Below are positions 7,924-19,321 of a stretch of 31,147 nucleotides of DNA, one piece after another. This stretch comes from a virus. Taxonomy: Duplodnaviria; Heunggongvirae; Uroviricota; Caudoviricetes. Location: the IMG/VR virus record IMGVR_UViG_2671180864_000006. One strand, 5' to 3'. Made by a program: the position numbers and the translations under genes. Below the pieces are notes generated by a model that saw only the letters and a program-made list of their open reading frames with translations, was not told the DNA's origin and did not search any database. Numbering within the stretch: position 1 is the stretch's first letter; each line of letters begins with the position of its first letter.

Positions 7924-10746
7924 ATGACGGCAGAGTACATCAGGGACTGGCAACAACCGCGCCACGCAGTGGGGCGTGAAGGAACGGGGATCCCCGCTCC
8001 TGAATCCGCGCTTTCCTCCTGGCTGGATGCCCACCGGGCAGAGAACGAGCGCCGCCAGGAAATGGCTGATGCGGCGTTCTCCGCCACGCCACTGGGCAAC
8101 CTGATTAATAAAAGCCTGGACGCACAGGAAAAACAGGACAAAACCATCACACTGGCAGGAGACGCCAGAAAACAGGCACGCGGCGCGGTGGATGAAGCCA
8201 TGGCCTCGCTGCGCCTGCTGCCGTCCTATCTGCGCGATCCGCTTATTCGCCACCTCTCCTTCCTGCGCAAAAAACAGGAAGCCGATCGCCGGAAAGGCAA
8301 AAAGAGCTGGCAGGCGGAACGCTATGCACGCGGAACCCTGCGCAAAATATTCGAACGTCTGGATCGCACTGACGGACACTGGCTGACACCGGGTTATCGC
8401 TCCCTTGCCGGACGTGAACGCCTGGACGATTTGCTTTACCTGCCGCAACTCAACAAACACCAGATACAGACGCTGGCCACCATGACGGCGGCGATGTTCA
8501 GCAGCACCTTCGAAAAACTCTGCGATGGTTTTGGCGCGACTGATGGCGAGCTGACCATGGATGTAACGCTGAAGGCGTATCAGATGCTGGCCCGCATGGC
8601 GTTACACTTACACGCCATGCCTCCGCATTATGACGCACTGACAACAGACAAAGACCGGAGGCACGAACCGGACACAGAACTGCTGCCGGGCGCAATCCTT
8701 CGCCTGACCTGTGCGGAATGGTGGAAACGCAAACTGTGGCTGTTACGTTGCGAGTGGAGAGAAGAACAACTTCGCGCCGCCTGTCTGGTTTCCAGAAAAA
8801 CATCGCCCTATCTGAGCCAGGACGCGTTAAGCGAGTTTCGCGCACAGCGCGAGAAAACACGCGATTTCCTGAAAAGTTTCATGCTGGAAAATGAAGACGG
8901 GTTCACGATTGATCTCGAGACGGTGTATTACGCGGGAGTAAGTAACCCGGTTCACCGTAAGGCAGAAATGATGGCCACCATGAAGGGGCTGGAACTTCTG
9001 GCCGAAGCCCGTGGCGACAAAGCGGTGTTTCTGACTGTCACCTGCCCGTCAAAATACCACGCCACAACGGAGAACGGTCATCCGAATCCCAAATGGAACG
9101 GGGCCACAATGCGCGACTCCAGCGATTACCTGGTTAACACGTTTTTTGCGACGGTCCGCAAAAAACTGAACCGCGACGGCCTGCGCTGGTATGGCATCCG
9201 CACGGCGGAGCCTCACCATGACGGCACCGTGCACTGGCATATGATGGTCTTTGCTCATCCGGAAGAAATCGACACCATTGTGTCCCACACCCGCGATATT
9301 GCCATTCAGGAAGATCGTCACGAGCTGGGCGATGACATAACTCCGCGCTTTAAGGCGGAGTATGTAGACGGCTCAAAAGGCACGCCAACCAGCTACATCG
9401 CCACCTACATCGGGAAAAACCTGGACAGCCGCGCCGTGGATGGCATCGACCCGAAAACGGGCAAGCCACGCGTTGACCACGAAACCGGAAAATCAATGGC
9501 CGAGAGCGTGGAACGCGCCATCGGCTGGGCGCGCCTTCACCGGGTCCGCCAGTTCCAGTTCTTTGGCATCCCCTCCCGCCAGGTATGGCGTGAACTGCGC
9601 CGCCTTGCCAGCCAGATGGCACGCAACCCGGAAGGCCCGCAACGGCTGAAGGATGACGCAATGGATGCGGTTCTTGCCGCCGCTGATGCCGGATGTTTTG
9701 CCACCTACATAGAGAAACAGGGCGGCGTACTTGTTCCACGCAAAGACTACCTGATTCGCACCGCCTACGACCTCGCCGATGAGCTGAACGATTACGGCGA
9801 ACAGAGCGTACAGATTTACGGGATCTGGTCACCACTCATCGGGGAATCCTCCCGTGTGTGCACGCATCCGGATAACTGGAAGCTGGTAAGACGCAAACCG
9901 GAAGCGGAAGACAGCGCCCGCGAAAATGGTTTTGACCTTCAGGGCGGCCCTGCCGCCCCTTGGACTCGTGGCAATAACTGTCCCCGTGTACAGGAAACGG
10001 ACAACAACGGGACAGAACAGCCGGAAGAACGGCCAGCACCGTGGCCGCAGCTCCCTGACGGCGTTGATGTGGATGAATGGATGCGCTCACTGAAACGGCA
10101 CGAACGCCGGGCGCTGATGCGTTCGCTTCGTGACAAACAGGCAAAAAACAGCAGTGATGAAATGCAGAGCTGGACACAGAGCCGCAAACAGCAGCGGCCT
10201 TTGCCTGATAACCACGAATTACTCGCTAAAGAATGGCGGGAGTCTGCTGAATCTCTCGGCCTGCATATCGGTGAACAACAGATGCAGCACCTGTTACGGG
10301 GCGGCAGTCTGTACGTTGACGGCAGCATCATTGCACCGCAGGGATTTGAAATTGTACGCAAACCGGATACCCGCCCGGACAGCCGAATCACGCAGCTCTG
10401 GCAGCGCCTGAGCCGTAATCATGGCGTAAGCAGCACGGAGATCCGCCATAACCCGGTCGCCAGCTATCTGACACAGCTGGGGGCATCAGACCCTGAAGCC
10501 GCCGCACGCCTGGCATCCACACTTCAGCAGGACCAGAACACCATGAAAACACCCGTTACCGTGCTTTCTGACATGCTGCGCGCCATCCGCGACGCAGAGC
10601 ACGCACAGAGAATCAGTGAAACCACTGAACGCGCCCGCCGCAAAGCAGACCTGCTGCGGGGTGGCCTGACCAGTGGAAACAAAAAACAGACAGAAACGGG
10701 ACTCACGAATCCCGTAAATGAGCAAAAAACGCGCAGCGATATATGA
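7924..10746 (+). CDS. A: Replication initiation endonuclease, P2 gpA-like (rolling-circle HUH)
   Basis: 940-aa ORF with HUH motif (GTVHWHMMVFA) and paired-tyrosine motif (SYIATYIGKN); carries a long low-complexity C-terminal region that makes it longer than P2 gpA as recalled. Confidence 0.88.
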   Translation: MTAEYIRDWQQPRHAVGREGTGIPAPESALSSWLDAHRAENERRQEMADAAFSATPLGNLINKSLDAQEKQDKTITLAGDARKQARGAVDEAMASLRLLPSYLRDPLIRHLSFLRKKQEADRRKGKKSWQAERYARGTLRKIFERLDRTDGHWLTPGYRSLAGRERLDDLLYLPQLNKHQIQTLATMTAAMFSSTFEKLCDGFGATDGELTMDVTLKAYQMLARMALHLHAMPPHYDALTTDKDRRHEPDTELLPGAILRLTCAEWWKRKLWLLRCEWREEQLRAACLVSRKTSPYLSQDALSEFRAQREKTRDFLKSFMLENEDGFTIDLETVYYAGVSNPVHRKAEMMATMKGLELLAEARGDKAVFLTVTCPSKYHATTENGHPNPKWNGATMRDSSDYLVNTFFATVRKKLNRDGLRWYGIRTAEPHHDGTVHWHMMVFAHPEEIDTIVSHTRDIAIQEDRHELGDDITPRFKAEYVDGSKGTPTSYIATYIGKNLDSRAVDGIDPKTGKPRVDHETGKSMAESVERAIGWARLHRVRQFQFFGIPSRQVWRELRRLASQMARNPEGPQRLKDDAMDAVLAAADAGCFATYIEKQGGVLVPRKDYLIRTAYDLADELNDYGEQSVQIYGIWSPLIGESSRVCTHPDNWKLVRRKPEAEDSARENGFDLQGGPAAPWTRGNNCPRVQETDNNGTEQPEERPAPWPQLPDGVDVDEWMRSLKRHERRALMRSLRDKQAKNSSDEMQSWTQSRKQQRPLPDNHELLAKEWRESAESLGLHIGEQQMQHLLRGGSLYVDGSIIAPQGFEIVRKPDTRPDSRITQLWQRLSRNHGVSSTEIRHNPVASYLTQLGASDPEAAARLASTLQQDQNTMKTPVTVLSDMLRAIRDAEHAQRISETTERARRKADLLRGGLTSGNKKQTETGLTNPVNEQKTRSDI

Positions 10747-10822: not shown

Positions 10823-11782
10823 ATGAAAATTTGTATCGACGACGGCTCCACCAACATCAAGCTGGCATGGACTGAGAACGGCGAACGCCGCAACGCCATC
10901 AGCCCGAACAGCTTCAAGTCGGAATGGTCTGCGCCGTTCGGTGGCATGCAGCCCGCGAACTACATGCTTGATGGCGTGCGCTATGGTTTTGATCCGGTCA
11001 GCGATCGCTTTGTCCAGACAACCGACACGCAATACCAGTACAGCGATGTAAATGTCATTGCCATTCATCACGCGCTGGTCAAATCAGGCATCACGCCACA
11101 GGAGGTGGATGTGGTTGTCACCCTGCCACTGAGCGAGTATTTCGACACAAACGCACAGCCGGACATGGCCAACATCAACCGCAAAAAAGCGAACGTTATG
11201 CGCCCGGTGGAGTACCAGAACGGCGAAGCATTCACTATCCGTAACGTGCGGGTTATGCCTGAATCCATTCCGGCTGGCTTTAAGGCACTGGCTGACATGA
11301 GTCCGTTTGAATCCCTGCTGATTGTGGATTTGGGCGGAACCACGCTGGATGTGGCAAAGGTTCAGGGGCAACTGGCAGGTATCAGCCAGGTGTTTTGCGA
11401 TCCACACGTAGGCGTTTCTCTGATGGCCGATGCCGTACTGTCGGTGATGGCCACTAACGGTATGCGCACCAGTCACCACATCGCCAATACCATTATCGAA
11501 CATCGCCATGATGAAGCCTGGCTGCGCCAGCACATCCACAATGACGCGCATTACGCCAGCCTGATGGCGGTTATTCGTGAAAAGGAAGAAACACTGAAAC
11601 AACGCGTGATCCGCGCGCTGGCGGGTTTTTCGGGTTACGGGCGGGTGATGGTTGTCGGTGGAGGGGCGGAGATTGTGGCACCCGCTATCCGCGAAGCCTG
11701 CGGAGTTAATGCGACTTTCATCGCGGACGGGGTGCCACAGTTTGCTCTGGTTAATGGGCTGTACGCAATGGACAAGGAGTAA
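10823..11782 (+). CDS. parM: Actin-like segregation ATPase, ParM/StbA family
   Basis: 319-aa ORF with actin-fold phosphate-1 (ICIDDGSTNIKL), phosphate-2 (IVDLGGTTLDV) and adenosine (VMVVGGGAEI) motifs, plus several short blocks matching plasmid R1 ParM as recalled (SPNSFK, YSDVNV, INRKK, LVNGLY). Confidence 0.8.
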   Translation: MKICIDDGSTNIKLAWTENGERRNAISPNSFKSEWSAPFGGMQPANYMLDGVRYGFDPVSDRFVQTTDTQYQYSDVNVIAIHHALVKSGITPQEVDVVVTLPLSEYFDTNAQPDMANINRKKANVMRPVEYQNGEAFTIRNVRVMPESIPAGFKALADMSPFESLLIVDLGGTTLDVAKVQGQLAGISQVFCDPHVGVSLMADAVLSVMATNGMRTSHHIANTIIEHRHDEAWLRQHIHNDAHYASLMAVIREKEETLKQRVIRALAGFSGYGRVMVVGGGAEIVAPAIREACGVNATFIADGVPQFALVNGLYAMDKE

Positions 11783-12683: not shown

Positions 12684-12919
12684 GTAATTCAGCACGACTA
12701 CAGCTTGGTTTTTCACCGCTATCAAAAACCATCGTATTGGCAAAAATGCGTGACTTAGGAGACGGAACAAAACGCCGCGTAGGAAATGATCGCGGTCGCG
12801 ATGTAACCAACGAGGCCGCTCAACTCGTTTGGCATCTAGTCATGGCAGAAGGCGGTGAAATTAATTGGGAGCTGGATGATGGTTCTCGTATGATTTTGAG
12901 GGCCGAGAAGAGTAAATAG
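12680..12919 (+). CDS. Hypothetical small protein, accessory-locus cargo
   Basis: 79-aa ORF; GTG start overlaps the upstream stop (GTGA), indicating translational coupling. Confidence 0.45.
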   Translation: MSNSARLQLGFSPLSKTIVLAKMRDLGDGTKRRVGNDRGRDVTNEAAQLVWHLVMAEGGEINWELDDGSRMILRAEKSK

Positions 12920-12933
12920 CTCAAGGGGGATTA

Positions 12934-13119
12934 ATGCTAAATGATGATGAAGAAGAGCTGCTTATGCAGGAATGGTCGCTCGGTGATTATGATAATGGTG
13001 AAAATGGGTGCCCGCATTGTGGCCGTTATCGTTTATGTATCTGCCAGAATGGAAAACACAGATGTGAAAAGTGCAATTGGTCTCCGGAACTTAATGACTA
13101 CGTGCCGATCGAGTGGTAG
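12934..13119 (+). CDS. Hypothetical Cys-rich zinc-finger-like small protein
   Basis: 61-aa ORF with AAGGGGG RBS; Cys cluster CPHCGRYRLCICQNGKHRCEKC. Confidence 0.5.
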   Translation: MLNDDEEELLMQEWSLGDYDNGENGCPHCGRYRLCICQNGKHRCEKCNWSPELNDYVPIEW

Positions 13120-13159
13120 AGGTAAGTCACACTAGGTGTTTTTTAGTTGATTTTATAAA

Positions 13160-13267
13160 TGCACAATAGTGCACAAATTTGCACAATTTTTTTGAACGAC
13201 TTTTTGCCCTTCCGGCCCGCGTGGCGGCTGGATCCGTCAAGGATCCGTGCATGCACAAAAAAACGCG
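13160..13267. repeat. Helically phased TGCACAA repeats and GGATCCGT direct repeat in the cos-proximal region
   Basis: TGCACAA at 13160, 13170 and 13180 (10-bp period) and again near 13250; GGATCCGT twice (13230-13237, 13241-13248); a GCGTGGCGG motif at about 13219-13227 resembles the start of P2/186-type cohesive ends. Confidence 0.5.
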
Positions 13268-13560
13268 TTTTTTCTGCGCGCAGGTGACGGGGGAACAGCC
13301 CGCGTTTCAGGGGGTAAATAGCATTCCCTGAACGATGTCGCAGAGATACAACAGAATGGCTGTATTTCTCACGCTGAGCGTGAAAAAGACGTGAGGGCTT
13401 TTGATTTGATGGGGTGAAAGGTAAGGCCGTCAAAATCGCACTGAGACGGCGAGAATATGCAGTCAACGAGGTGGGATTGCGTAAGAGTCTGACTGTCGAT
13501 GATGGCAATCAGCAGGAAAGCGTCGTGAAATTATCTGACTGATACAGGAGCTGGAGAGTC

Positions 13561-13583
13561 GGGGCATAAATTTTTTATGCCCC
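13561..13583 (-). terminator. Hairpin downstream of portal gene Q (terminator-like)
   Basis: Near-perfect palindrome GGGGCATAAA-TTT-TTTATGCCCC about 28 nt after the Q stop; no separate U-tract follows, so terminator function is uncertain. Confidence 0.35.
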
Positions 13584-13610
13584 GGCGAAGCAGCAGACAA
13601 GCGAAGCGCG

Positions 13611-14657
13611 TCAGGATGTGGGCTGGGTGTCTAACAGTGCGTAAGGGTTAAAGCGGATCACCTCTTCGCCAAGCCAGTCATTGATGTGCTTCATGGCCTC
13701 CATGACGGGCATCAGCTCGTTAATTGCGTAAACCCGCGCGGCCTTCTCCACATCACCAAACGCACTTTTTTCGCCCGGCATCGCCCCCATCAGTTGCGGC
13801 GGAACGCGGTGCGCAGCCAGCACATCATCACGGGATGCCGCCTTAACATTCATGAACTCATCCTTTGCGGTGATCTGCTGGAACGGCAAAATTTGCACCC
13901 CCTCTTTGCCCCCGTTGGGCGCATGAATGAGCACGTTTTTAAACGCACCACCACCACGTGCCCCCTGTAGCGTTTCTTTCAGGGAGTCCATGCTTTCGCG
14001 GTTTACCTGCGCTGCACCGATGTAGATGATGCACCCGGCGTGGGATCCGTTGTCGTAGTACAGTTTTCTGAACATGTCCGCCGAATGAGAAAGGCTGGCC
14101 GAGAGTAATGCGCCAAGATATTCCGGCATGCCGTAGATTTCCTGGTTAATATCCGGATTCATCAGGTGGCACACTTTGCCAGGACGAAACTGAAACGCAT
14201 CCTTGCCATCCTGCACATACCACCATGATTCAAGATCGCTTCCGCGTCGCATGTATTTCGCCAGGGCGTGCCGTAATTTAAGCGGTTCGCCGAGCATATT
14301 GCTCCGAAGCTCAAGGAATGCGTTACCGAACACAAACCAGTCCAGCGCCAGCGCCGAGAAATCCTGCCGGGAAAGCAGCGGGTGCGGAATATAGCAGCCG
14401 AGCAATACATTGCGCTTAAAGTAAAGCGCAGACTGATGCCAGGACGTTTGCCGGGCAGCTCTTGCCAGACCGTACCAGTCCACCGGGGTTTCATACCACC
14501 GCCCGTTATCAGCACAGTACATATTGTCCAGCAGGTCATGCCCGGTCAGGCGGTAAGGACCATCAAATGTGAATGCACTGAGCGACGATTCTTTCCTGAG
14601 CGCATCAGCGAGATCAATGCGTGAACTCATGCGCACTTTTTTATTTTTTCTGCTCAT
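13611..14657 (-). CDS. Q: Portal protein, P2 gpQ-like
   Basis: 348-aa ORF adjacent to and co-oriented with the terminase large subunit, leftmost gene next to cos as in P2. Confidence 0.85.
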   Translation of the reverse strand: MSRKNKKVRMSSRIDLADALRKESSLSAFTFDGPYRLTGHDLLDNMYCADNGRWYETPVDWYGLARAARQTSWHQSALYFKRNVLLGCYIPHPLLSRQDFSALALDWFVFGNAFLELRSNMLGEPLKLRHALAKYMRRGSDLESWWYVQDGKDAFQFRPGKVCHLMNPDINQEIYGMPEYLGALLSASLSHSADMFRKLYYDNGSHAGCIIYIGAAQVNRESMDSLKETLQGARGGGAFKNVLIHAPNGGKEGVQILPFQQITAKDEFMNVKAASRDDVLAAHRVPPQLMGAMPGEKSAFGDVEKAARVYAINELMPVMEAMKHINDWLGEEVIRFNPYALLDTQPTS

Positions 14658-16408
14658 CAGAACTCCATAACCGTGAAACGCTCGTTTTCTCCTTCGCCGC
14701 CAATCGGTTCGTTAATGACAGCAAGCATGGTTGCCCACGCAAGGTCGCCGTGGCTGATCCCCCTCGCGCGGTCCGTTTCGTAAGTGATAAAACCGCCCGG
14801 TGTTTTCACCTTACGCACGGCGTTAAAGGCCGCAACCAGCTCGCGTTCGGCGCGATCGTATTCCCACCGCCCGGCACGCATTATTTGCAGCATTTTCAGT
14901 ACCAGCGACCGTTTTGATGACAGCGTGAAGGTGTAAGGGATGGCGGCGGGAAAAAACCGTTTCACTATCTGATAGACGGCATCCCCGTGCCCGCCCGTCG
15001 CATCAATGCCGATGTGTTCCACGTTGTAGCGATACGTGAACTCTTCAATAACTCTGGCCTGCTCTTCAAATTCCAGCCCCTGAACGCGTCGCGTCTCCAC
15101 CGTTCTGAAACGACCACCAGGAACAGCCGGAGGAACCACCACGGACACAGCGCCGCTGTCGCCGTTACCACTGCTGCCGTTTGCGTCATACCCAATCCAT
15201 ACCGGACGATTCCCCATCGGGCGGGGGGCAAAGGGTTTCCAGTCTTTCCAGTCGTCGTATCCGTCAACACCGCAGCCAATCAGGATATTCAGGTTAAATG
15301 CCGATTCCCCTTCGCGGACAAACTCACACATATAGAGATTGCGGAACTCGTCTTCGGTGTTTTCATCACGAATTTCATCAATATCGGTGTGTTTCCAGCC
15401 GTGATTAACCACATCTTCCAGCGTGACAATTTGCCGCCACGTCCGGTCAGGGCAGATAAGCCCGTTATGCAGCGTTTTCCAGTCCACAGAAAAACGCTGG
15501 CGTTTATGCGCGGCCTTTTTCTCGTTCCAGCGGTCGCCGTTCCAGTAGGCGTATGCCTCGTGCGTTTCGGTGGATGGCGTGGAGAAGCAGGTGCGCCGCA
15601 GTCCGCTGAGGGTTGCCATAGCGCCAGCCACCTTGCGCAGTTCAGCAAAGCGACTGACCCAGAAAAATTCATCAAAATAAAAATTGCCCGTGTAAGATTG
15701 CGCCGTCGCAGCAGAAGTGCCGAGAAAATGCATCTCTGCGCCGTTGGAGAGGATGATTTTATCGCCCCCTTTCAGCTCCACATCGACTTCAGCCGCGGCC
15801 TTCTGAATAATGCTTTTAAACTGGAACGCCTGACGACGCGACGCAGACAAAAAAATCTGGTTACGCTGGTAAGGTTGTGCCACATCGTCACGCAGCGCCA
15901 TCAGCAGTGCTTCCTGTGCAAAATACCAGGTCGCCCCAATCTGTCGGGATTTCAGGATCATCCTGTTACGTATCCCGGCTTCCCTGCAAAGCGTCAGGGA
16001 GTCAAACCAGCCCCGCTGATGCCACTCCAGCCTGCTGATGATTTTTTCCCGCAGTGCGGCAATCTGTTCCGGCGTGAAATGATTTTTGAGTTTTTTCGCC
16101 CGGCCTTTCTTTCCTGTGGCCGTCGCATCCGGCTGGCCATCATGCAGTTTTTTAAGCTGCCGGGTCAGCAGGTCTATTTCCTTAAAGTCACCACCTGTTT
16201 TATTCTGTTTTTCAGTAAGCTGGATGAGGCGCGCATCGATGGACTGCGTGACACGCTGCACGGGTGGCGTTTCATCCCACTGGTCGCGTTTTTTCCACGC
16301 ATAAATCGTGTTCGGGTTTATTCCCATCAGACGTGATATTTCTGCGGGCGGATAACCCTGCCAGTAAAGTTGCCGCGCACGCTGGCGCACAAAAGCGTCC
16401 TGAATCAT
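14657..16408 (-). CDS. P: Terminase large (ATPase) subunit, P2 gpP-like
   Basis: 583-aa ORF of P2 gpP size, divergent from the O-N-M-L operon. Confidence 0.88.
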   Translation of the reverse strand: MIQDAFVRQRARQLYWQGYPPAEISRLMGINPNTIYAWKKRDQWDETPPVQRVTQSIDARLIQLTEKQNKTGGDFKEIDLLTRQLKKLHDGQPDATATGKKGRAKKLKNHFTPEQIAALREKIISRLEWHQRGWFDSLTLCREAGIRNRMILKSRQIGATWYFAQEALLMALRDDVAQPYQRNQIFLSASRRQAFQFKSIIQKAAAEVDVELKGGDKIILSNGAEMHFLGTSAATAQSYTGNFYFDEFFWVSRFAELRKVAGAMATLSGLRRTCFSTPSTETHEAYAYWNGDRWNEKKAAHKRQRFSVDWKTLHNGLICPDRTWRQIVTLEDVVNHGWKHTDIDEIRDENTEDEFRNLYMCEFVREGESAFNLNILIGCGVDGYDDWKDWKPFAPRPMGNRPVWIGYDANGSSGNGDSGAVSVVVPPAVPGGRFRTVETRRVQGLEFEEQARVIEEFTYRYNVEHIGIDATGGHGDAVYQIVKRFFPAAIPYTFTLSSKRSLVLKMLQIMRAGRWEYDRAERELVAAFNAVRKVKTPGGFITYETDRARGISHGDLAWATMLAVINEPIGGEGENERFTVMEF

Positions 16409-18520: not shown

Positions 18521-19321
18521 ATGATTACTCCTGCACAGCAACACTGGCAGAACGTGATGGCACAGCGCGCAGGCCGGGCGAATGAAGGTGTGGACCACGC
18601 CGCGCGTACCGCGCATGAAGAGGTGCTGTATCGTCTGCGTCTGGCACAGGCCCGGCTTAAGGGCGTACAGGCCAGAAGCGCGAAAGCCGACATCAAAAAA
18701 GCGTTGTTGCCGGACTTTTCCGGCTGGATTGAGGGAACGCTGGAGGCTGACGGCGGGCAACAGGACGAAGTGATTGCCACGCTGATGGTGTGGGCGATTG
18801 ACTGCGGCGATCTTCCGCTTGCGCTGCGTATTGGTGCGTATGCGGTCCGTCACAACCTCATCATGCCGGATAACTTTGGCCGTACTGCTGCCACAGTGCT
18901 GACCGAAGAAATCTGCAATCCGGTACTGACGCAGGCCGGGACGGATGCCGACGCGGATTTGTCCGTCTTTATCGAACCACTGGACACACTTTGGGAAATT
19001 GTCGCCAACCAGGATATGCCGGACGAAGTGCGCGCCAAATTATGCAAGGCGTGCGCCTTTGCCCGCCGTGGCCTGAGCGATGCGGACAGCATGGCCTCAT
19101 CACTGAAGCTGCTGCGCGAAGCGATGCATCTGAACCAGAACGCAGGTGTGAAACGCGAGATTGCAACCCTTTCCCGCGCCCTGAAAAAAGCCGATTCCGC
19201 AGCCGCACCAGAAGACGCCAGCGCACAGCAGGCGCAGGACGAAAGCAGCGAAAGTAAAAAGACAACGCGGAAGCCTGCAACACGAAAAACCACCGCGACG
19301 CAGAAGGCGAAGCGCGGTTAA
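18521..19321 (+). CDS. M: Terminase small (endonuclease) subunit, P2 gpM-like
   Basis: 266-aa ORF following N; basic C-terminal tail. Confidence 0.8.
   Translation: MITPAQQHWQNVMAQRAGRANEGVDHAARTAHEEVLYRLRLAQARLKGVQARSAKADIKKALLPDFSGWIEGTLEADGGQQDEVIATLMVWAIDCGDLPLALRIGAYAVRHNLIMPDNFGRTAATVLTEEICNPVLTQAGTDADADLSVFIEPLDTLWEIVANQDMPDEVRAKLCKACAFARRGLSDADSMASSLKLLREAMHLNQNAGVKREIATLSRALKKADSAAAPEDASAQQAQDESSESKKTTRKPATRKTTATQKAKRG

What the first reader, a model, noticed from the sequence alone, without database searches (positions are those of the whole stretch)
13160..13267. Helically phased TGCACAA repeats and a GGATCCGT direct repeat in the cos-proximal region
Three TGCACAA copies at exact 10-bp spacing, a fourth about 70 bp on, and a tandem GGATCCGT pair lie in the non-coding region between the accessory locus and portal gene Q, where P2-like phages have cos. 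One-helical-turn phasing suggests a protein-binding array (terminase small subunit, IHF-type bending protein or a regulator). I could not find a canonical P2 cohesive-end sequence, only a partial GCGTGGCGG match.
Basis: partly seen in the sequence, partly recalled or inferred. Interest (0 to 1): 0.35.

Follow-up and report, generated by a model that had tools for sequence, protein, structure and literature searches.

The report
Packaging-signal repeats of a P2-like prophage

Summary
TGCACAA sits at 13160, 13170, 13180 and 13252, and GGATCCGT at 13230 and 13241. An exact 7-mer triple at helical spacing appeared in 0 of 300 simulated windows; the 8-mer pair alone is what chance gives.

The window is a P88-like (Xuanwuvirus, Peduoviridae) prophage present in 1142 of 5426 complete E. 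coli genomes. Homology to relatives starts exactly at the first TGCACAA. A satellite-like island shares only 13160 to about 13326 with these prophages.

P2, 186, PSP3, P4 and RSA1 carry TGCAT at about -124/-120, -111, -101 and -29 from their cohesive ends (annotated in P2 and 186). The third-to-fourth spacing is 72 bp there and here, although the spacer sequence differs. That geometry places the window's cohesive-end core at 13281-13299 (±2), CAGGTGACGGGGGAACAGC, which is nearly invariant in relatives. Arsenophonus and Klebsiella 3LV2017 relatives have TGCACAA-type arrays followed by a canonical GGCG(A/C)GGCGGGG at that offset.

The repeats are most likely terminase recognition sites. Which protein binds them (gpM or the N-terminal HTH of gpP) is unresolved, and the virion ends are unmapped. 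This is a new member of a known kind, of modest interest.

The parts
13160..13166 (+). TGCACAA repeat 1, at -121 from the predicted cos start. It is the outer edge of the conserved cos module.
   Evidence: Homology to 1142 E. coli genomes and to phage records begins here. TGCA is at -121 in 82 (+6 at -120) of 101 unique relatives chosen without reference to the repeats.
13170..13176 (+). TGCACAA repeat 2, at -111.
   Evidence: TGCA is at -111 in 88 (+6) of 101 relatives. The same offset carries TGCAT in P2, 186, P4 and PSP3.
13180..13186 (+). TGCACAA repeat 3, at -101. This is the best-conserved copy.
   Evidence: The same offset carries TGCAT in P2, 186, P4 and PSP3.
13187..13193 (+). T7 run directly after repeat 3, conserved within the TGCACAA-type family.
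   Evidence: Alignment of 22 representatives less than 90% identical. With repeats 2-3 it forms only a weak hairpin: -6.1 kcal/mol, z = -0.55.
13200..13218 (+). Moderately conserved spacer block (ctttttgcccttccggccc).
   Evidence: also kept in the satellite-like island.
13219..13228 (+). It is a mid-spacer GGCG[CG]G-type element (-58), not the cohesive end.
   Evidence: GGCG[CG]G is at -56 in 186, PSP3, P4, the KD602 satellite-like island, phiT5282H and 3LV2017, and in 21 of 75 P2-type and 7 of 26 P88-type representatives. The stretch is variable in relatives.
13230..13237 (+). GGATCCGT copy 1, with GATC at -50.
   Evidence: Present only in the E. coli P88 clade of this family. GATC recurs at -50 in 23 of 110 unique P2-type (186-like) cos regions.
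13241..13248 (+). GGATCCGT copy 2, with GATC at -39.
   Evidence: GATC is at -39/-38 in 21 of 26 representatives of the TGCACAA-type family.
13252..13258 (+). TGCACAA repeat 4, the cos-proximal site at -29, followed by an A-run.
   Evidence: TGCA is at -29 in 93 (+4) of 101 relatives, and in 106 of 110 P2-type sequences as TGCATTA. It lies 72 bp from repeat 3 in 94 of 101 relatives.
13258..13273 (.). Perfect 16-bp palindrome AAAAAACGCGTTTTTT between repeat 4 and the predicted cut site. Clade-specific.
   Evidence: I10. Not conserved in other family members.
13281..13299 (+). Predicted 19-nt cohesive-end core CAGGTGACGGGGGAACAGC. The register is uncertain by about 2 nt; the alternative is 13283-13301.
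   Evidence: Nearly invariant, with its GCGCG flank, in 22 diverged representatives, the satellite-like island and phiT5282H. It lies 29 bp after repeat 4, as in P2, 186 and P4. Arsenophonus L122 and Klebsiella 3LV2017 have canonical GGCG(C/A)GGCGGGG at that offset. It matches the P2 end at 10 of 19 positions, or 13 of 19 when shifted by 2 (my count on the sequences). Physical ends are not mapped.
13160..13326 (+). The cos module as a whole: the only DNA shared between P88-like prophages and a satellite-like island.
   Evidence: L010 3000-3166.
13560..13584 (-). Perfect 11-bp stem hairpin downstream of the portal gene, a likely terminator of the P-Q operon (counterpart of tQ in P2).
   Evidence: I6. 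P2 and 186 annotate tQ/tW in the same position.
13611..14657 (-). Portal protein (gpQ homolog).
   Evidence: Pfam Phage_portal, E = 4.4e-18. Annotated as portal in relatives.
14657..16408 (-). Large terminase (gpP homolog) with an N-terminal helix-turn-helix (aa 6-63). Candidate reader of the repeats.
   Evidence: Pfam Terminase_6N, Terminase_6C, Terminase_5 and HTH_23. N-terminal alignments.
18521..19321 (+). Small terminase subunit (gpM homolog). Candidate reader of the repeats.
   Evidence: Pfam Phage_term_smal, E = 1.3e-36. About 36% identical to P2 gpM and 55-59% to the Klebsiella phages 3LV2017 and Kp4846-1; only 3LV2017's cos region was inspected, and it carries TGCAC-type repeats.

Best explanation
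The four TGCACAA copies are recognition sites within the cos (cohesive-end packaging) signal of a P88-like, P2-family prophage.

The signal spans about 13160-13326. Its parts, in order, are:
- a distal array of three sites one helical turn apart (-121, -111, -101);
- a spacer of fixed length (72 bp, about 7 turns) but free sequence, containing a GGCGG/GATC element;
- a proximal fourth site (-29);
- the cutting site, predicted at 13281-13299 (±2), where terminase would make staggered nicks leaving a 19-nt 5' overhang as in P2 and 186.

The proposed mechanism is that the phage terminase binds the phased sites on one face of the DNA. The spacer bends or wraps so that the distal array and the proximal site are held together. 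This positions the nuclease over the core 29 bp away. The bound subunit would be the small subunit gpM and/or the N-terminal HTH of the large subunit gpP.

Shown here: the anatomy, its conservation, its position, and its sharing with a satellite-like element. Inferred: protein binding, the identity of the protein, the exact nick positions, and the wrapping.
For: 1. Context. The portal, TerL (with HTH) and TerS genes are arranged as in P2. The region is 92-97% identical to P88-like phages.

2. Module boundary. In 1142 of 5426 complete E. coli genomes and in phage records, homology starts at 13160, the first repeat; the DNA to its left is variable cargo.

3. Satellite sharing. A satellite-like island (primase, integrases, ogr/Delta-like gene, own P2-family capsid gene) occurs in about 56 genomes. 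It shares only the cos module and keeps all four repeats and the 19-mer, but not GCGTGGCGG or GGATCCGT. This parallels P2/P4, which are reported to share only cos (PMC9122126).

4. Geometry that needs no chosen anchor. The third-to-fourth TGCA distance is 72 bp in the window, the satellite-like island and phiT5282H, and also in P2, 186, P4 and PSP3. It is 72 bp in 94 of 101 P88-type and 76 of 110 P2-type sequences, while the spacer sequence is unrelated.

5. Offsets from cohesive ends (annotated in P2, 186 and phiCTX; taken from the record start in the others). TGCAT is at about -124/-120, -111, -101 and -29 in P2, 186, P4 and PSP3, and at -129, -110, -100 and -29 in RSA1. The related YGCAG is at equivalent offsets in Smp131 and phiCTX, whose GenBank record annotates repeats around cos.

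6. Unbiased sample. 101 unique relatives anchored only on the 19-mer carry TGCA at -121/-111/-101/-29 in 82-93 of them, or 88-97 counting copies offset by 1 bp. Column conservation peaks on the repeats and the 19-mer.

7. Bridging sequences. Arsenophonus L122 and Klebsiella 3LV2017 carry TGCAC-type arrays followed, 29 bp after the proximal site, by canonical GGCG(C/A)GGCGGGG.

8. Chance. An exact triple at helical spacing occurred in 0 of 300 simulations.

9. Lineage-specific reader. The motif differs between P2 (TGCAT) and P88 (TGCACAA), although both infect E. coli. gpM is only about 36% identical between them. The gpP recognition helix is lineage-specific. This fits a phage-encoded reader.
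Against: - No physical mapping of virion ends exists for this lineage. The linear record LR595891 starts at 13205, but its nt 1 was chosen 'relative to reference genomes' (PMC6969025).
- The predicted core matches the P2 end at only 10-13 of 19 positions, and its register is uncertain by 2 nt.
- No binding data exist. The covariation test between the gpP HTH and the motif is inconclusive: RSA1 has TGCAT but an H-type helix like phiCTX and Smp131.
- Conservation next to cos could also reflect a role other than terminase binding.
- I could not read Ziermann & Calendar 1990, so I cannot say how much of the array lies inside their experimentally defined minimal cos.
Confidence: 0.75

Rival explanations
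1. The repeats are binding or bending sites for a host nucleoid protein (IHF, Fis, HU-type) that assists cos recognition, as IHF does at lambda cosB, rather than sites read by terminase itself.
For: There is helical phasing with flanking T7 and A7 runs. The TGCA core is shared by all lineages, including those from other host genera, which one common factor could explain.
Against: No IHF consensus (up to 1 mismatch) occurs in 13100-13620. The extended motif differs between P2 (TGCAT) and P88-like phages (TGCACAA) that share the host E. coli, and becomes YGCAG in Pseudomonas and Stenotrophomonas phages. This fits a co-evolving phage protein better than a host factor.
Confidence: 0.1
2. The array plus the T-run acts mainly as a transcription terminator or insulator, stopping read-through from the + strand cargo genes into cos.
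For: Repeats 2-3 can pair (GTGCA/TGCAC) and are followed by T7. The scan lists this as the only terminator-like site in 12900-13700. The cargo genes end 40 bp upstream.
Against: The hairpin is weak: 5 pairs, -6.1 kcal/mol, z = -0.55, and 57 of 200 shuffles fold as well. The scan expects 0.8 such sites by chance. P2, 186 and P4 keep the array without a T-run, and 186 has its terminator t95b upstream of the array. A terminator role explains neither the fourth copy nor the fixed 72-bp spacing.
Confidence: 0.05
3. The repeats are operators or recombination sites tied to the adjacent cargo hotspot, for example regulation of cargo genes or the crossover point for cargo exchange, and not part of packaging.
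For: The repeats sit exactly at the hotspot boundary. In P2 the distal TGCAT copies lie about 28-50 bp upstream of the annotated old-tin transcript starts. Rousset et al. speculate that cos-proximal ends promote exchange (PMC9122126).
Against: In this window the flanking genes converge, and no promoter-like site is found. The array is kept whatever the cargo and its orientation, including in satellites with unrelated neighbours. Its distances are fixed relative to cos, not to the cargo.
Confidence: 0.05

Closest known systems
The cos region of P2, 186 and satellite P4 (19-nt 5' cohesive ends; the '55-bp core' of Ziermann & Calendar 1990, as cited in PMC5694545 and PMC3931495)
   Same: Same genome position: between the cargo hotspot downstream of gpA and the 3' end of portal gene Q. 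Same layout: TGCA-core sites at about -121/-124, -111, -101 and -29, a 72-bp gap, and a GC-rich core with CGGGG at the same offset, and a YGCGCG element close to the core. A subset also has GGCG[CG]G at -56 and GATC at -50. The module is shared with a satellite.
   Different: The motif is TGCACAA rather than TGCAT(T/G). The cohesive-end core is diverged (10-13 of 19 positions). The 55-bp core is not conserved as sequence (no TGCATTAAAACCG...AAGCGGGC). TGCGCG precedes the core here, whereas it follows the core in P2. About 310 bp, rather than about 170, separate the core from the portal gene. The ends have not been mapped physically.
Phage lambda cos (cosN nicking site plus cosB with R3-I1-R2-R1 sites bound by gpNu1 and IHF)
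   Same: It works alike in outline: a nicking site flanked on one side by several copies of a short repeat that position terminase (established knowledge of lambda; summarised in PMC7617512).
   Different: The proteins are unrelated (gpM/Phage_term_smal and a gpP N-terminal HTH, against gpNu1). There is no IHF consensus. The arrangement is a distal triple plus one proximal site with a fixed 72-bp gap. The predicted overhang is 19 nt, not 12 nt. This is not a member of the lambda family.
phiCTX cos region with annotated repeats R3-R6 (GenBank NC_003278)
   Same: A P2-family cos with short repeats annotated around the cohesive ends. YGCAG copies lie at -109, -99, -37 and -28.
   Different: A different motif (YGCAG), a 21-nt annotated end, and a Pseudomonas host. 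I could not read the original paper for the authors' interpretation.

Membership tests
P2-family (Peduoviridae) cos packaging signal | Lies between the variable cargo downstream of the replication gene and the 3' end of portal gene Q, with the Q-P and O-N-M packaging/head genes alongside. | tested here: met
   ORF map and Pfam: portal 13611..14657 (-), TerL 14657..16408 (-), TerS 18521..19321 (+). P88-like phage records are collinear.
P2-family (Peduoviridae) cos packaging signal | GC-rich 19-nt cohesive-end core of the type GGCGWGGCGGGGAAAGCAY. | tested here: inconclusive
   There is no canonical copy. The best candidate, 13281-13299 (or 13283-13301), matches at 10 (or 13) of 19 positions, including CGGGG..AA. 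Relatives with the same repeat array carry canonical GGCG(C/A)GGCGGGG at this offset.
P2-family (Peduoviridae) cos packaging signal | Sites with a TGCA core at about -121, -111, -101 and -29 from the cohesive end, with 72 bp between the third and fourth. This feature was derived here from P2, 186, P4, PSP3, RSA1 and 110 P2-type sequences. | tested here: met
   The 72-bp distance is independent of where cos is placed.
P2-family (Peduoviridae) cos packaging signal | Sequence conservation of the 55-bp core (TGCATTAAAACCG...AAGCGGGCR + 19-mer + TGCGCGC). | tested here: not met
   Only TGCA at -29, the CGGGG block and a nearby GCGCG are kept; the rest differs. It is therefore a diverged variant, not a P2/186-type cos in sequence.
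P2-family (Peduoviridae) cos packaging signal | The module is shared with satellites that rely on the helper's terminase. | tested here: met
   A KD602-type island (about 56 E. coli genomes) shares only L010 3000-3166, equal to window 13160 to about 13326. Actual mobilisation was not tested.
P2-family (Peduoviridae) cos packaging signal | Virion DNA has 5'-protruding cohesive ends generated at this site. | not testable with these tools
   No mapped ends were found. The start of LR595891 was chosen by analogy (PMC6969025).
P2-family (Peduoviridae) cos packaging signal | Terminase (gpM/gpP) binds and cuts here. | not testable with these tools
   Indirect evidence only: lineage-specific motif, gpM and gpP HTH. 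No solved structure of a gpM relative exists.
Lambda-type cosB | An IHF site (WATCAANNNNTTR) among the terminase-binding repeats. | tested here: not met
   No match with up to 1 mismatch in 13100-13620.

The most novel reading that the evidence does not exclude
All Peduoviridae and their satellites may share one cos geometry: three phased YGCA sites, a 72-bp spacer of free sequence, one proximal site, and the cut 29 bp further on. This geometry might be read by the helix-turn-helix fused to the N-terminus of the large terminase gpP rather than by gpM, with the spacer wrapped over about 7 helical turns. The TGCACAA/CAGGTGACGGGGGAACAGC version would then be a separate packaging specificity, orthogonal to P2/P4. 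It would be used by the P88-like prophages of a fifth of E. coli genomes and exploited by a distinct satellite family that carries its own P2-type capsid gene. Conserved Dam (GATC) sites at -39 and -50 might gate it.
Probability: 0.25. Interest if true: 0.55.

Novelty: new member of a known kind. Interest (0 to 1): 0.35.

Why it matters
It gives a concrete, testable cos site (13160 to about 13326; cut near 13281-13301) for a prophage lineage present in about 21% of complete E. coli genomes, whose records currently carry arbitrary starts.

It shows that the P2-family packaging signal has a conserved geometry even where its sequence has drifted. That helps to locate cos in other Peduoviridae and in satellites.

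It defines the right-hand edge of the cos-adjacent defence/cargo hotspot to the base.

It points to a helper-satellite pair (P88-like phage and a capsid-encoding island) with its own packaging specificity.

It is not a new kind of element.

Tried and rejected
1. GCGTGGCGG (13219-13227) as the cohesive end. Rejected: it is variable in relatives and absent from the satellite-like island, and it aligns with the -56 GGCG[CG]G spacer element of 186, PSP3 and P4.

2. The start of the linear record LR595891 (window 13205) as a mapped end. Rejected: the paper says nt 1 was chosen relative to reference genomes.

3. IHF site: none found.

4. Known RNA family: only a meaningless snoRNA hit, E = 0.51.

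5. Promoter: none found. Terminator: one weak hairpin, z = -0.55.

6. Dyad symmetry between repeat 4 and the core as a conserved hairpin. The 16-bp palindrome at 13258-13273 is clade-specific and not conserved in other family members.

7. Direct repeat GCCCGCGT at 13215 and 13298. The second copy is deleted in P88_4B11, so this is probably chance.

8. Covariation of the gpP recognition helix with the motif. It is Y in all TGCACAA-type sequences, Q in P2 and 186, and H in phiCTX and Smp131. RSA1 has TGCAT but H, so the test is inconclusive and confounded by phylogeny.

9. Ziermann & Calendar 1990 and the phiCTX paper are not held. Searches for P2 cos subsite or terminase-binding literature found nothing specific.

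10. The genome-contig scan for the triple also returned more than 100 unrelated loci, so the triple alone does not identify cos. The fourth copy at +72 and the 19-mer do.

Full report
OBSERVATION

The sequence shows TGCACAA on the + strand at 13160, 13170 and 13180, an exact 10-bp period, and again at 13252. GGATCCGT is at 13230 and 13241.

The stretch 13120-13610 lies between the last + strand accessory ORF (12934..13119) and the stop of a - strand portal gene (13611..14657). That gene is followed by a large terminase gene (14657..16408). A small-terminase gene is at 18521..19321.

TGCACAA as a word is not enriched in the window: 9 matches against 8.05 expected. An exact 7-mer triple at 10/11-bp spacing, however, occurs once in the window and in none of 300 Markov simulations. 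Exact 8-mer pairs within 8-15 bp number 11 in the window against a simulated mean of 5.05, so the GGATCCGT pair alone is nothing special.

WHAT THE WINDOW IS

The intergenic region is 92-97% identical to P88-like phages (Xuanwuvirus, Peduoviridae). It is found in 1142 of 5426 complete E. coli genomes.

In nearly all of these, homology starts at window 13160, the first base of the first repeat. The DNA to the left is different cargo in different genomes. Rousset et al. describe this locus, between gpA and gpQ and next to cos, as a hotspot of variable genes (PMC9122126). The repeat array is therefore the outermost conserved element on the cargo side.

A SATELLITE-LIKE ELEMENT SHARES ONLY THIS MODULE

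One diverged match (78% identity) is not a prophage. In E. coli KD602, between hpt and gcd, there is an island of about 12.5 kb. It encodes an integrase, a regulator, an Icd-like protein, a toprim primase, a second integrase, an ogr/Delta-like zinc-finger protein and a 'P2 family major capsid protein'.

About 56 complete genomes hold its int-cos-delta part. Roughly 420 further genomes match only L010 3000-3166; I take these to be the P88-like prophages (their flanks were not inspected). That interval corresponds to window 13160 to about 13326.

The island keeps TGCACAA x3 at 10-bp spacing, the T-run, the fourth TGCACAA and gcgcgCAGGTGACGGGGGAACAGC. It has unrelated sequence where the window has GCGTGGCGG and the two GGATCCGT copies. 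The same pattern holds in Enterobacter phage phiT5282H. This mirrors P2 and P4, which are reported to share only cos.

COMPARISON WITH PHAGES WHOSE ENDS ARE KNOWN

P2 and 186 have annotated cohesive ends, and P4 starts with the P2 19-mer.

Counting from the first base of the cohesive end, TGCA cores lie at these offsets:
- P2: -123, -111, -101, -29
- 186: -124, -120, -111, -101, -35, -29
- P4: -124, -111, -101, (-75), -35, -29
- PSP3: -120, -111, -101, -35, -29
- Ralstonia RSA1: -129, -110, -100, -35, -29

Smp131 has CGCAGG at -129, -112 and -102 and TGCAG at -29. phiCTX has YGCAG at -109, -99, -83, -37 and -28, and its GenBank record annotates repeats R3-R6 around cos.

A scan of IMG/VR anchored only on GGCGWGGCGGGGAAAGCA gave 110 unique sequences. 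TGCA is at -29 in 106 of them, at -35 in 92, at -101 (±1) in 97 and at -111 (±1) in 88. The sequence between these sites is highly variable.

The distance from the third to the fourth site is 72 bp in P2, 186, P4 and PSP3, and in 76 of the 110. In the window it is also 72 bp (13180 to 13252). This statement does not depend on where cos is placed.

WHERE COS IS IN THE WINDOW

Adding the P2 distance of 29 bp to the fourth repeat gives 13281. The 19 bases from there, CAGGTGACGGGGGAACAGC, together with the GCGCG in front, form the most conserved block of the whole region in 22 representatives less than 90% identical to one another. They are identical in the satellite-like island and in phiT5282H.

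The block matches the P2 end at 10 of 19 positions, with CGGGG at the same offset. Shifted by 2 (GGTGACGGGGGAACAGCCC), it matches at 13 of 19.

Two relatives bridge the gap to canonical cos sequences:
- Ca. Arsenophonus triatominarum (L122) has TGCACAA x3 and a fourth copy at +72. Exactly 29 bp later it has agcgggca|GGCGCGGCGGGGCTACCAC|tgcg, a canonical P2/186-type end with the 186-type left flank.
- Klebsiella phage 3LV2017 has TGCAAAA/TGCACAA/TGCACGA at 10-bp spacing and CGCACAA at +72. Its sequence GGCGAGGCGGGG starts 29 bp later.

An unbiased sample anchored only on the 19-mer gave 101 unique sequences. TGCA is at -121 in 82 (+6 at -120), at -111 in 88 (+6), at -101 in 91 (+6) and at -29 in 93 (+4). 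The third-to-fourth distance is 72 bp in 94 of them.

I therefore place the cohesive-end core at 13281-13299, with an uncertainty of about 2 nt. This is an inference. I found no mapped ends for this lineage. The linear record LR595891 starts at window 13205 only because its authors chose nt 1 'relative to reference genomes' (PMC6969025).

GCGTGGCGG (13219-13227) contains GGCGGC at -58. GGCG[CG]G is at -56 in 186, PSP3, P4, the satellite-like island, phiT5282H and 3LV2017. It is also there in 21 of 75 P2-type and 7 of 26 P88-type representatives. So GCGTGGCGG is the counterpart of a facultative mid-spacer element, not of the cohesive end.

The GGATCCGT duplication is confined to the E. coli P88 clade. 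Its GATC cores, however, sit at offsets that recur in relatives:
- -39/-38 in 21 of 26 P88-type representatives;
- -50 in 23 of 110 unique P2-type (186-like, GGCGCGGATCC) sequences.

Whether Dam methylation matters here is open.

HOW IT MOST LIKELY WORKS

Four properties point to recognition sites that are held together on one face of the DNA by a protein assembly, which then places a nuclease 29 bp from the proximal site:
- conserved positions with lineage-specific sequence;
- a spacer constrained in length but not in sequence;
- helical phasing (10 bp, and 72 bp or about 7 turns);
- retention by a satellite-like element that shares nothing else with the phage.

That is the logic of a terminase-binding subsite next to a nicking site, as in lambda cosB/cosN.

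P2 and P88-like phages share E. coli as host but differ in motif (TGCAT against TGCACAA), and no IHF consensus is present.

There are two candidate readers:
- gpM (Pfam Phage_term_smal) is about 36% identical to P2 gpM and 55-59% to the Klebsiella phages 3LV2017 and Kp4846-1; of these, only 3LV2017's cos region was inspected, and it carries TGCAC-type repeats.
- The N-terminus of the large subunit gpP carries a helix-turn-helix (Pfam Terminase_5/HTH_23, aa 6-63). The 186 record also notes this.

The presumed recognition helix of the gpP HTH reads as follows:
- NT[IVL]Y[AS]W[KR]KRD in all distinct TGCACAA-type sequences;
- PTVQSWKQRD in P2 and 186;
- KT[LV]HSWK[DA]RD in phiCTX and Smp131;
- VTVHSWKRRD in RSA1, which has TGCAT.

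Because of RSA1, the covariation test is inconclusive, and it is confounded by phylogeny in any case. No solved structure of a gpM relative exists.

RIVALS

- A terminator role for repeats 2-3 plus the T-run is weak. The hairpin has 5 pairs, -6.1 kcal/mol and z = -0.55. P2, 186 and P4 keep the array without a T-run.
- A promoter or operator role is unlikely. The flanking genes converge, and no promoter-like site is found. In P2 the distal copies lie about 28-50 bp upstream of the old-tin transcript starts, but the array is kept whatever the cargo.
- No Rfam family matches.

COMPARISON WITH WHAT IS KNOWN, AND VERDICT

The feature is the cos region of a P2-family phage. It shares the geometry of the P2/186/P4 cos but not the sequence of the '55-bp core'. 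Its cohesive-end core is diverged and its repeat is TGCACAA.

It works like lambda cosB/cosN in outline but is not a member of that family.

I could not read Ziermann & Calendar 1990. I therefore cannot say whether the distal TGCAT triple and the fixed 72-bp spacing were already described for P2 and P4.

I file the finding as a new member of a known kind: an ordinary but well-defined packaging signal, with a corrected cos position, a base-precise hotspot boundary and a matching satellite-like element. Interest 0.35.

Noticed in passing
L263 (E. coli KD602, NZ_CM145715.1, about 3803.0-3815.7 kb); cos module at L010 3000-3166: A satellite-like island of about 12.5 kb lies between hpt and gcd. 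It encodes a tyrosine integrase, an HTH regulator, an Icd-like protein, a toprim primase, a second integrase, a P88-type cos module, an ogr/Delta-like zinc-finger protein and its own 'P2 family major capsid protein' (423 aa), followed by MazEF. About 56 complete E. coli genomes hold its int-cos-delta part. It shares only cos with P88-like prophages.
   Followed up: partly
L012-L131 (genome contigs), e.g. L045, L039, L026, L033: TGCACAA x3 at a 10-bp period, often with variable 3-nt spacers, occurs in at least 103 loci of unrelated genomes. These include Bryobacterales (many loci per genome), Akkermansia, Bacteroidota and Chloroflexi. About 0.3 matches are expected by chance in 596 Gb (my estimate). 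None has the fourth copy at +72 or the cos 19-mer. Unexplained.
   Followed up: no
window 14657..16408 (-), aa 6-63: The large terminase gpP carries an N-terminal helix-turn-helix (Pfam Terminase_5/HTH_23). Its presumed recognition helix is lineage-specific: Y in all TGCACAA-type phages, Q in P2 and 186, and H in RSA1, phiCTX and Smp131.
   Followed up: partly
window 10823..11782 (+): A ParM-like actin (StbA_N + ParM_N, E = 2.7e-82) is encoded inside the prophage, between the 940-aa replication-protein homolog (7924..10746) and cos. It is annotated as a 'plasmid partition protein' in P88_4B11.
   Followed up: no
window 13414..13542 (+): A 42-aa GTG-start ORF between the predicted cos and the portal terminator is annotated as a hypothetical protein in the P88 and P88_4B11 records. 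About 310 bp, rather than about 170 as in P2, separate cos from the portal gene. Coding status was not evaluated.
   Followed up: no
window 13231 and 13242; relatives in L134-L253 and L264 onward (the scan): GATC (Dam) sites recur at fixed offsets from cos: -39/-38 in 21 of 26 P88-type representatives, and -50 in 23 of 110 unique P2-type (186-like) sequences. A possible methylation-sensitive step was not tested.
   Followed up: partly
L062 ('Vagococcus sp. WN89Y') and L092/L123 ('Bacillota bacterium' MAG): Near-identical enterobacterial P88-type cos regions appear in assemblies labelled as Firmicutes. This is most likely contamination or mis-binning.
   Followed up: no
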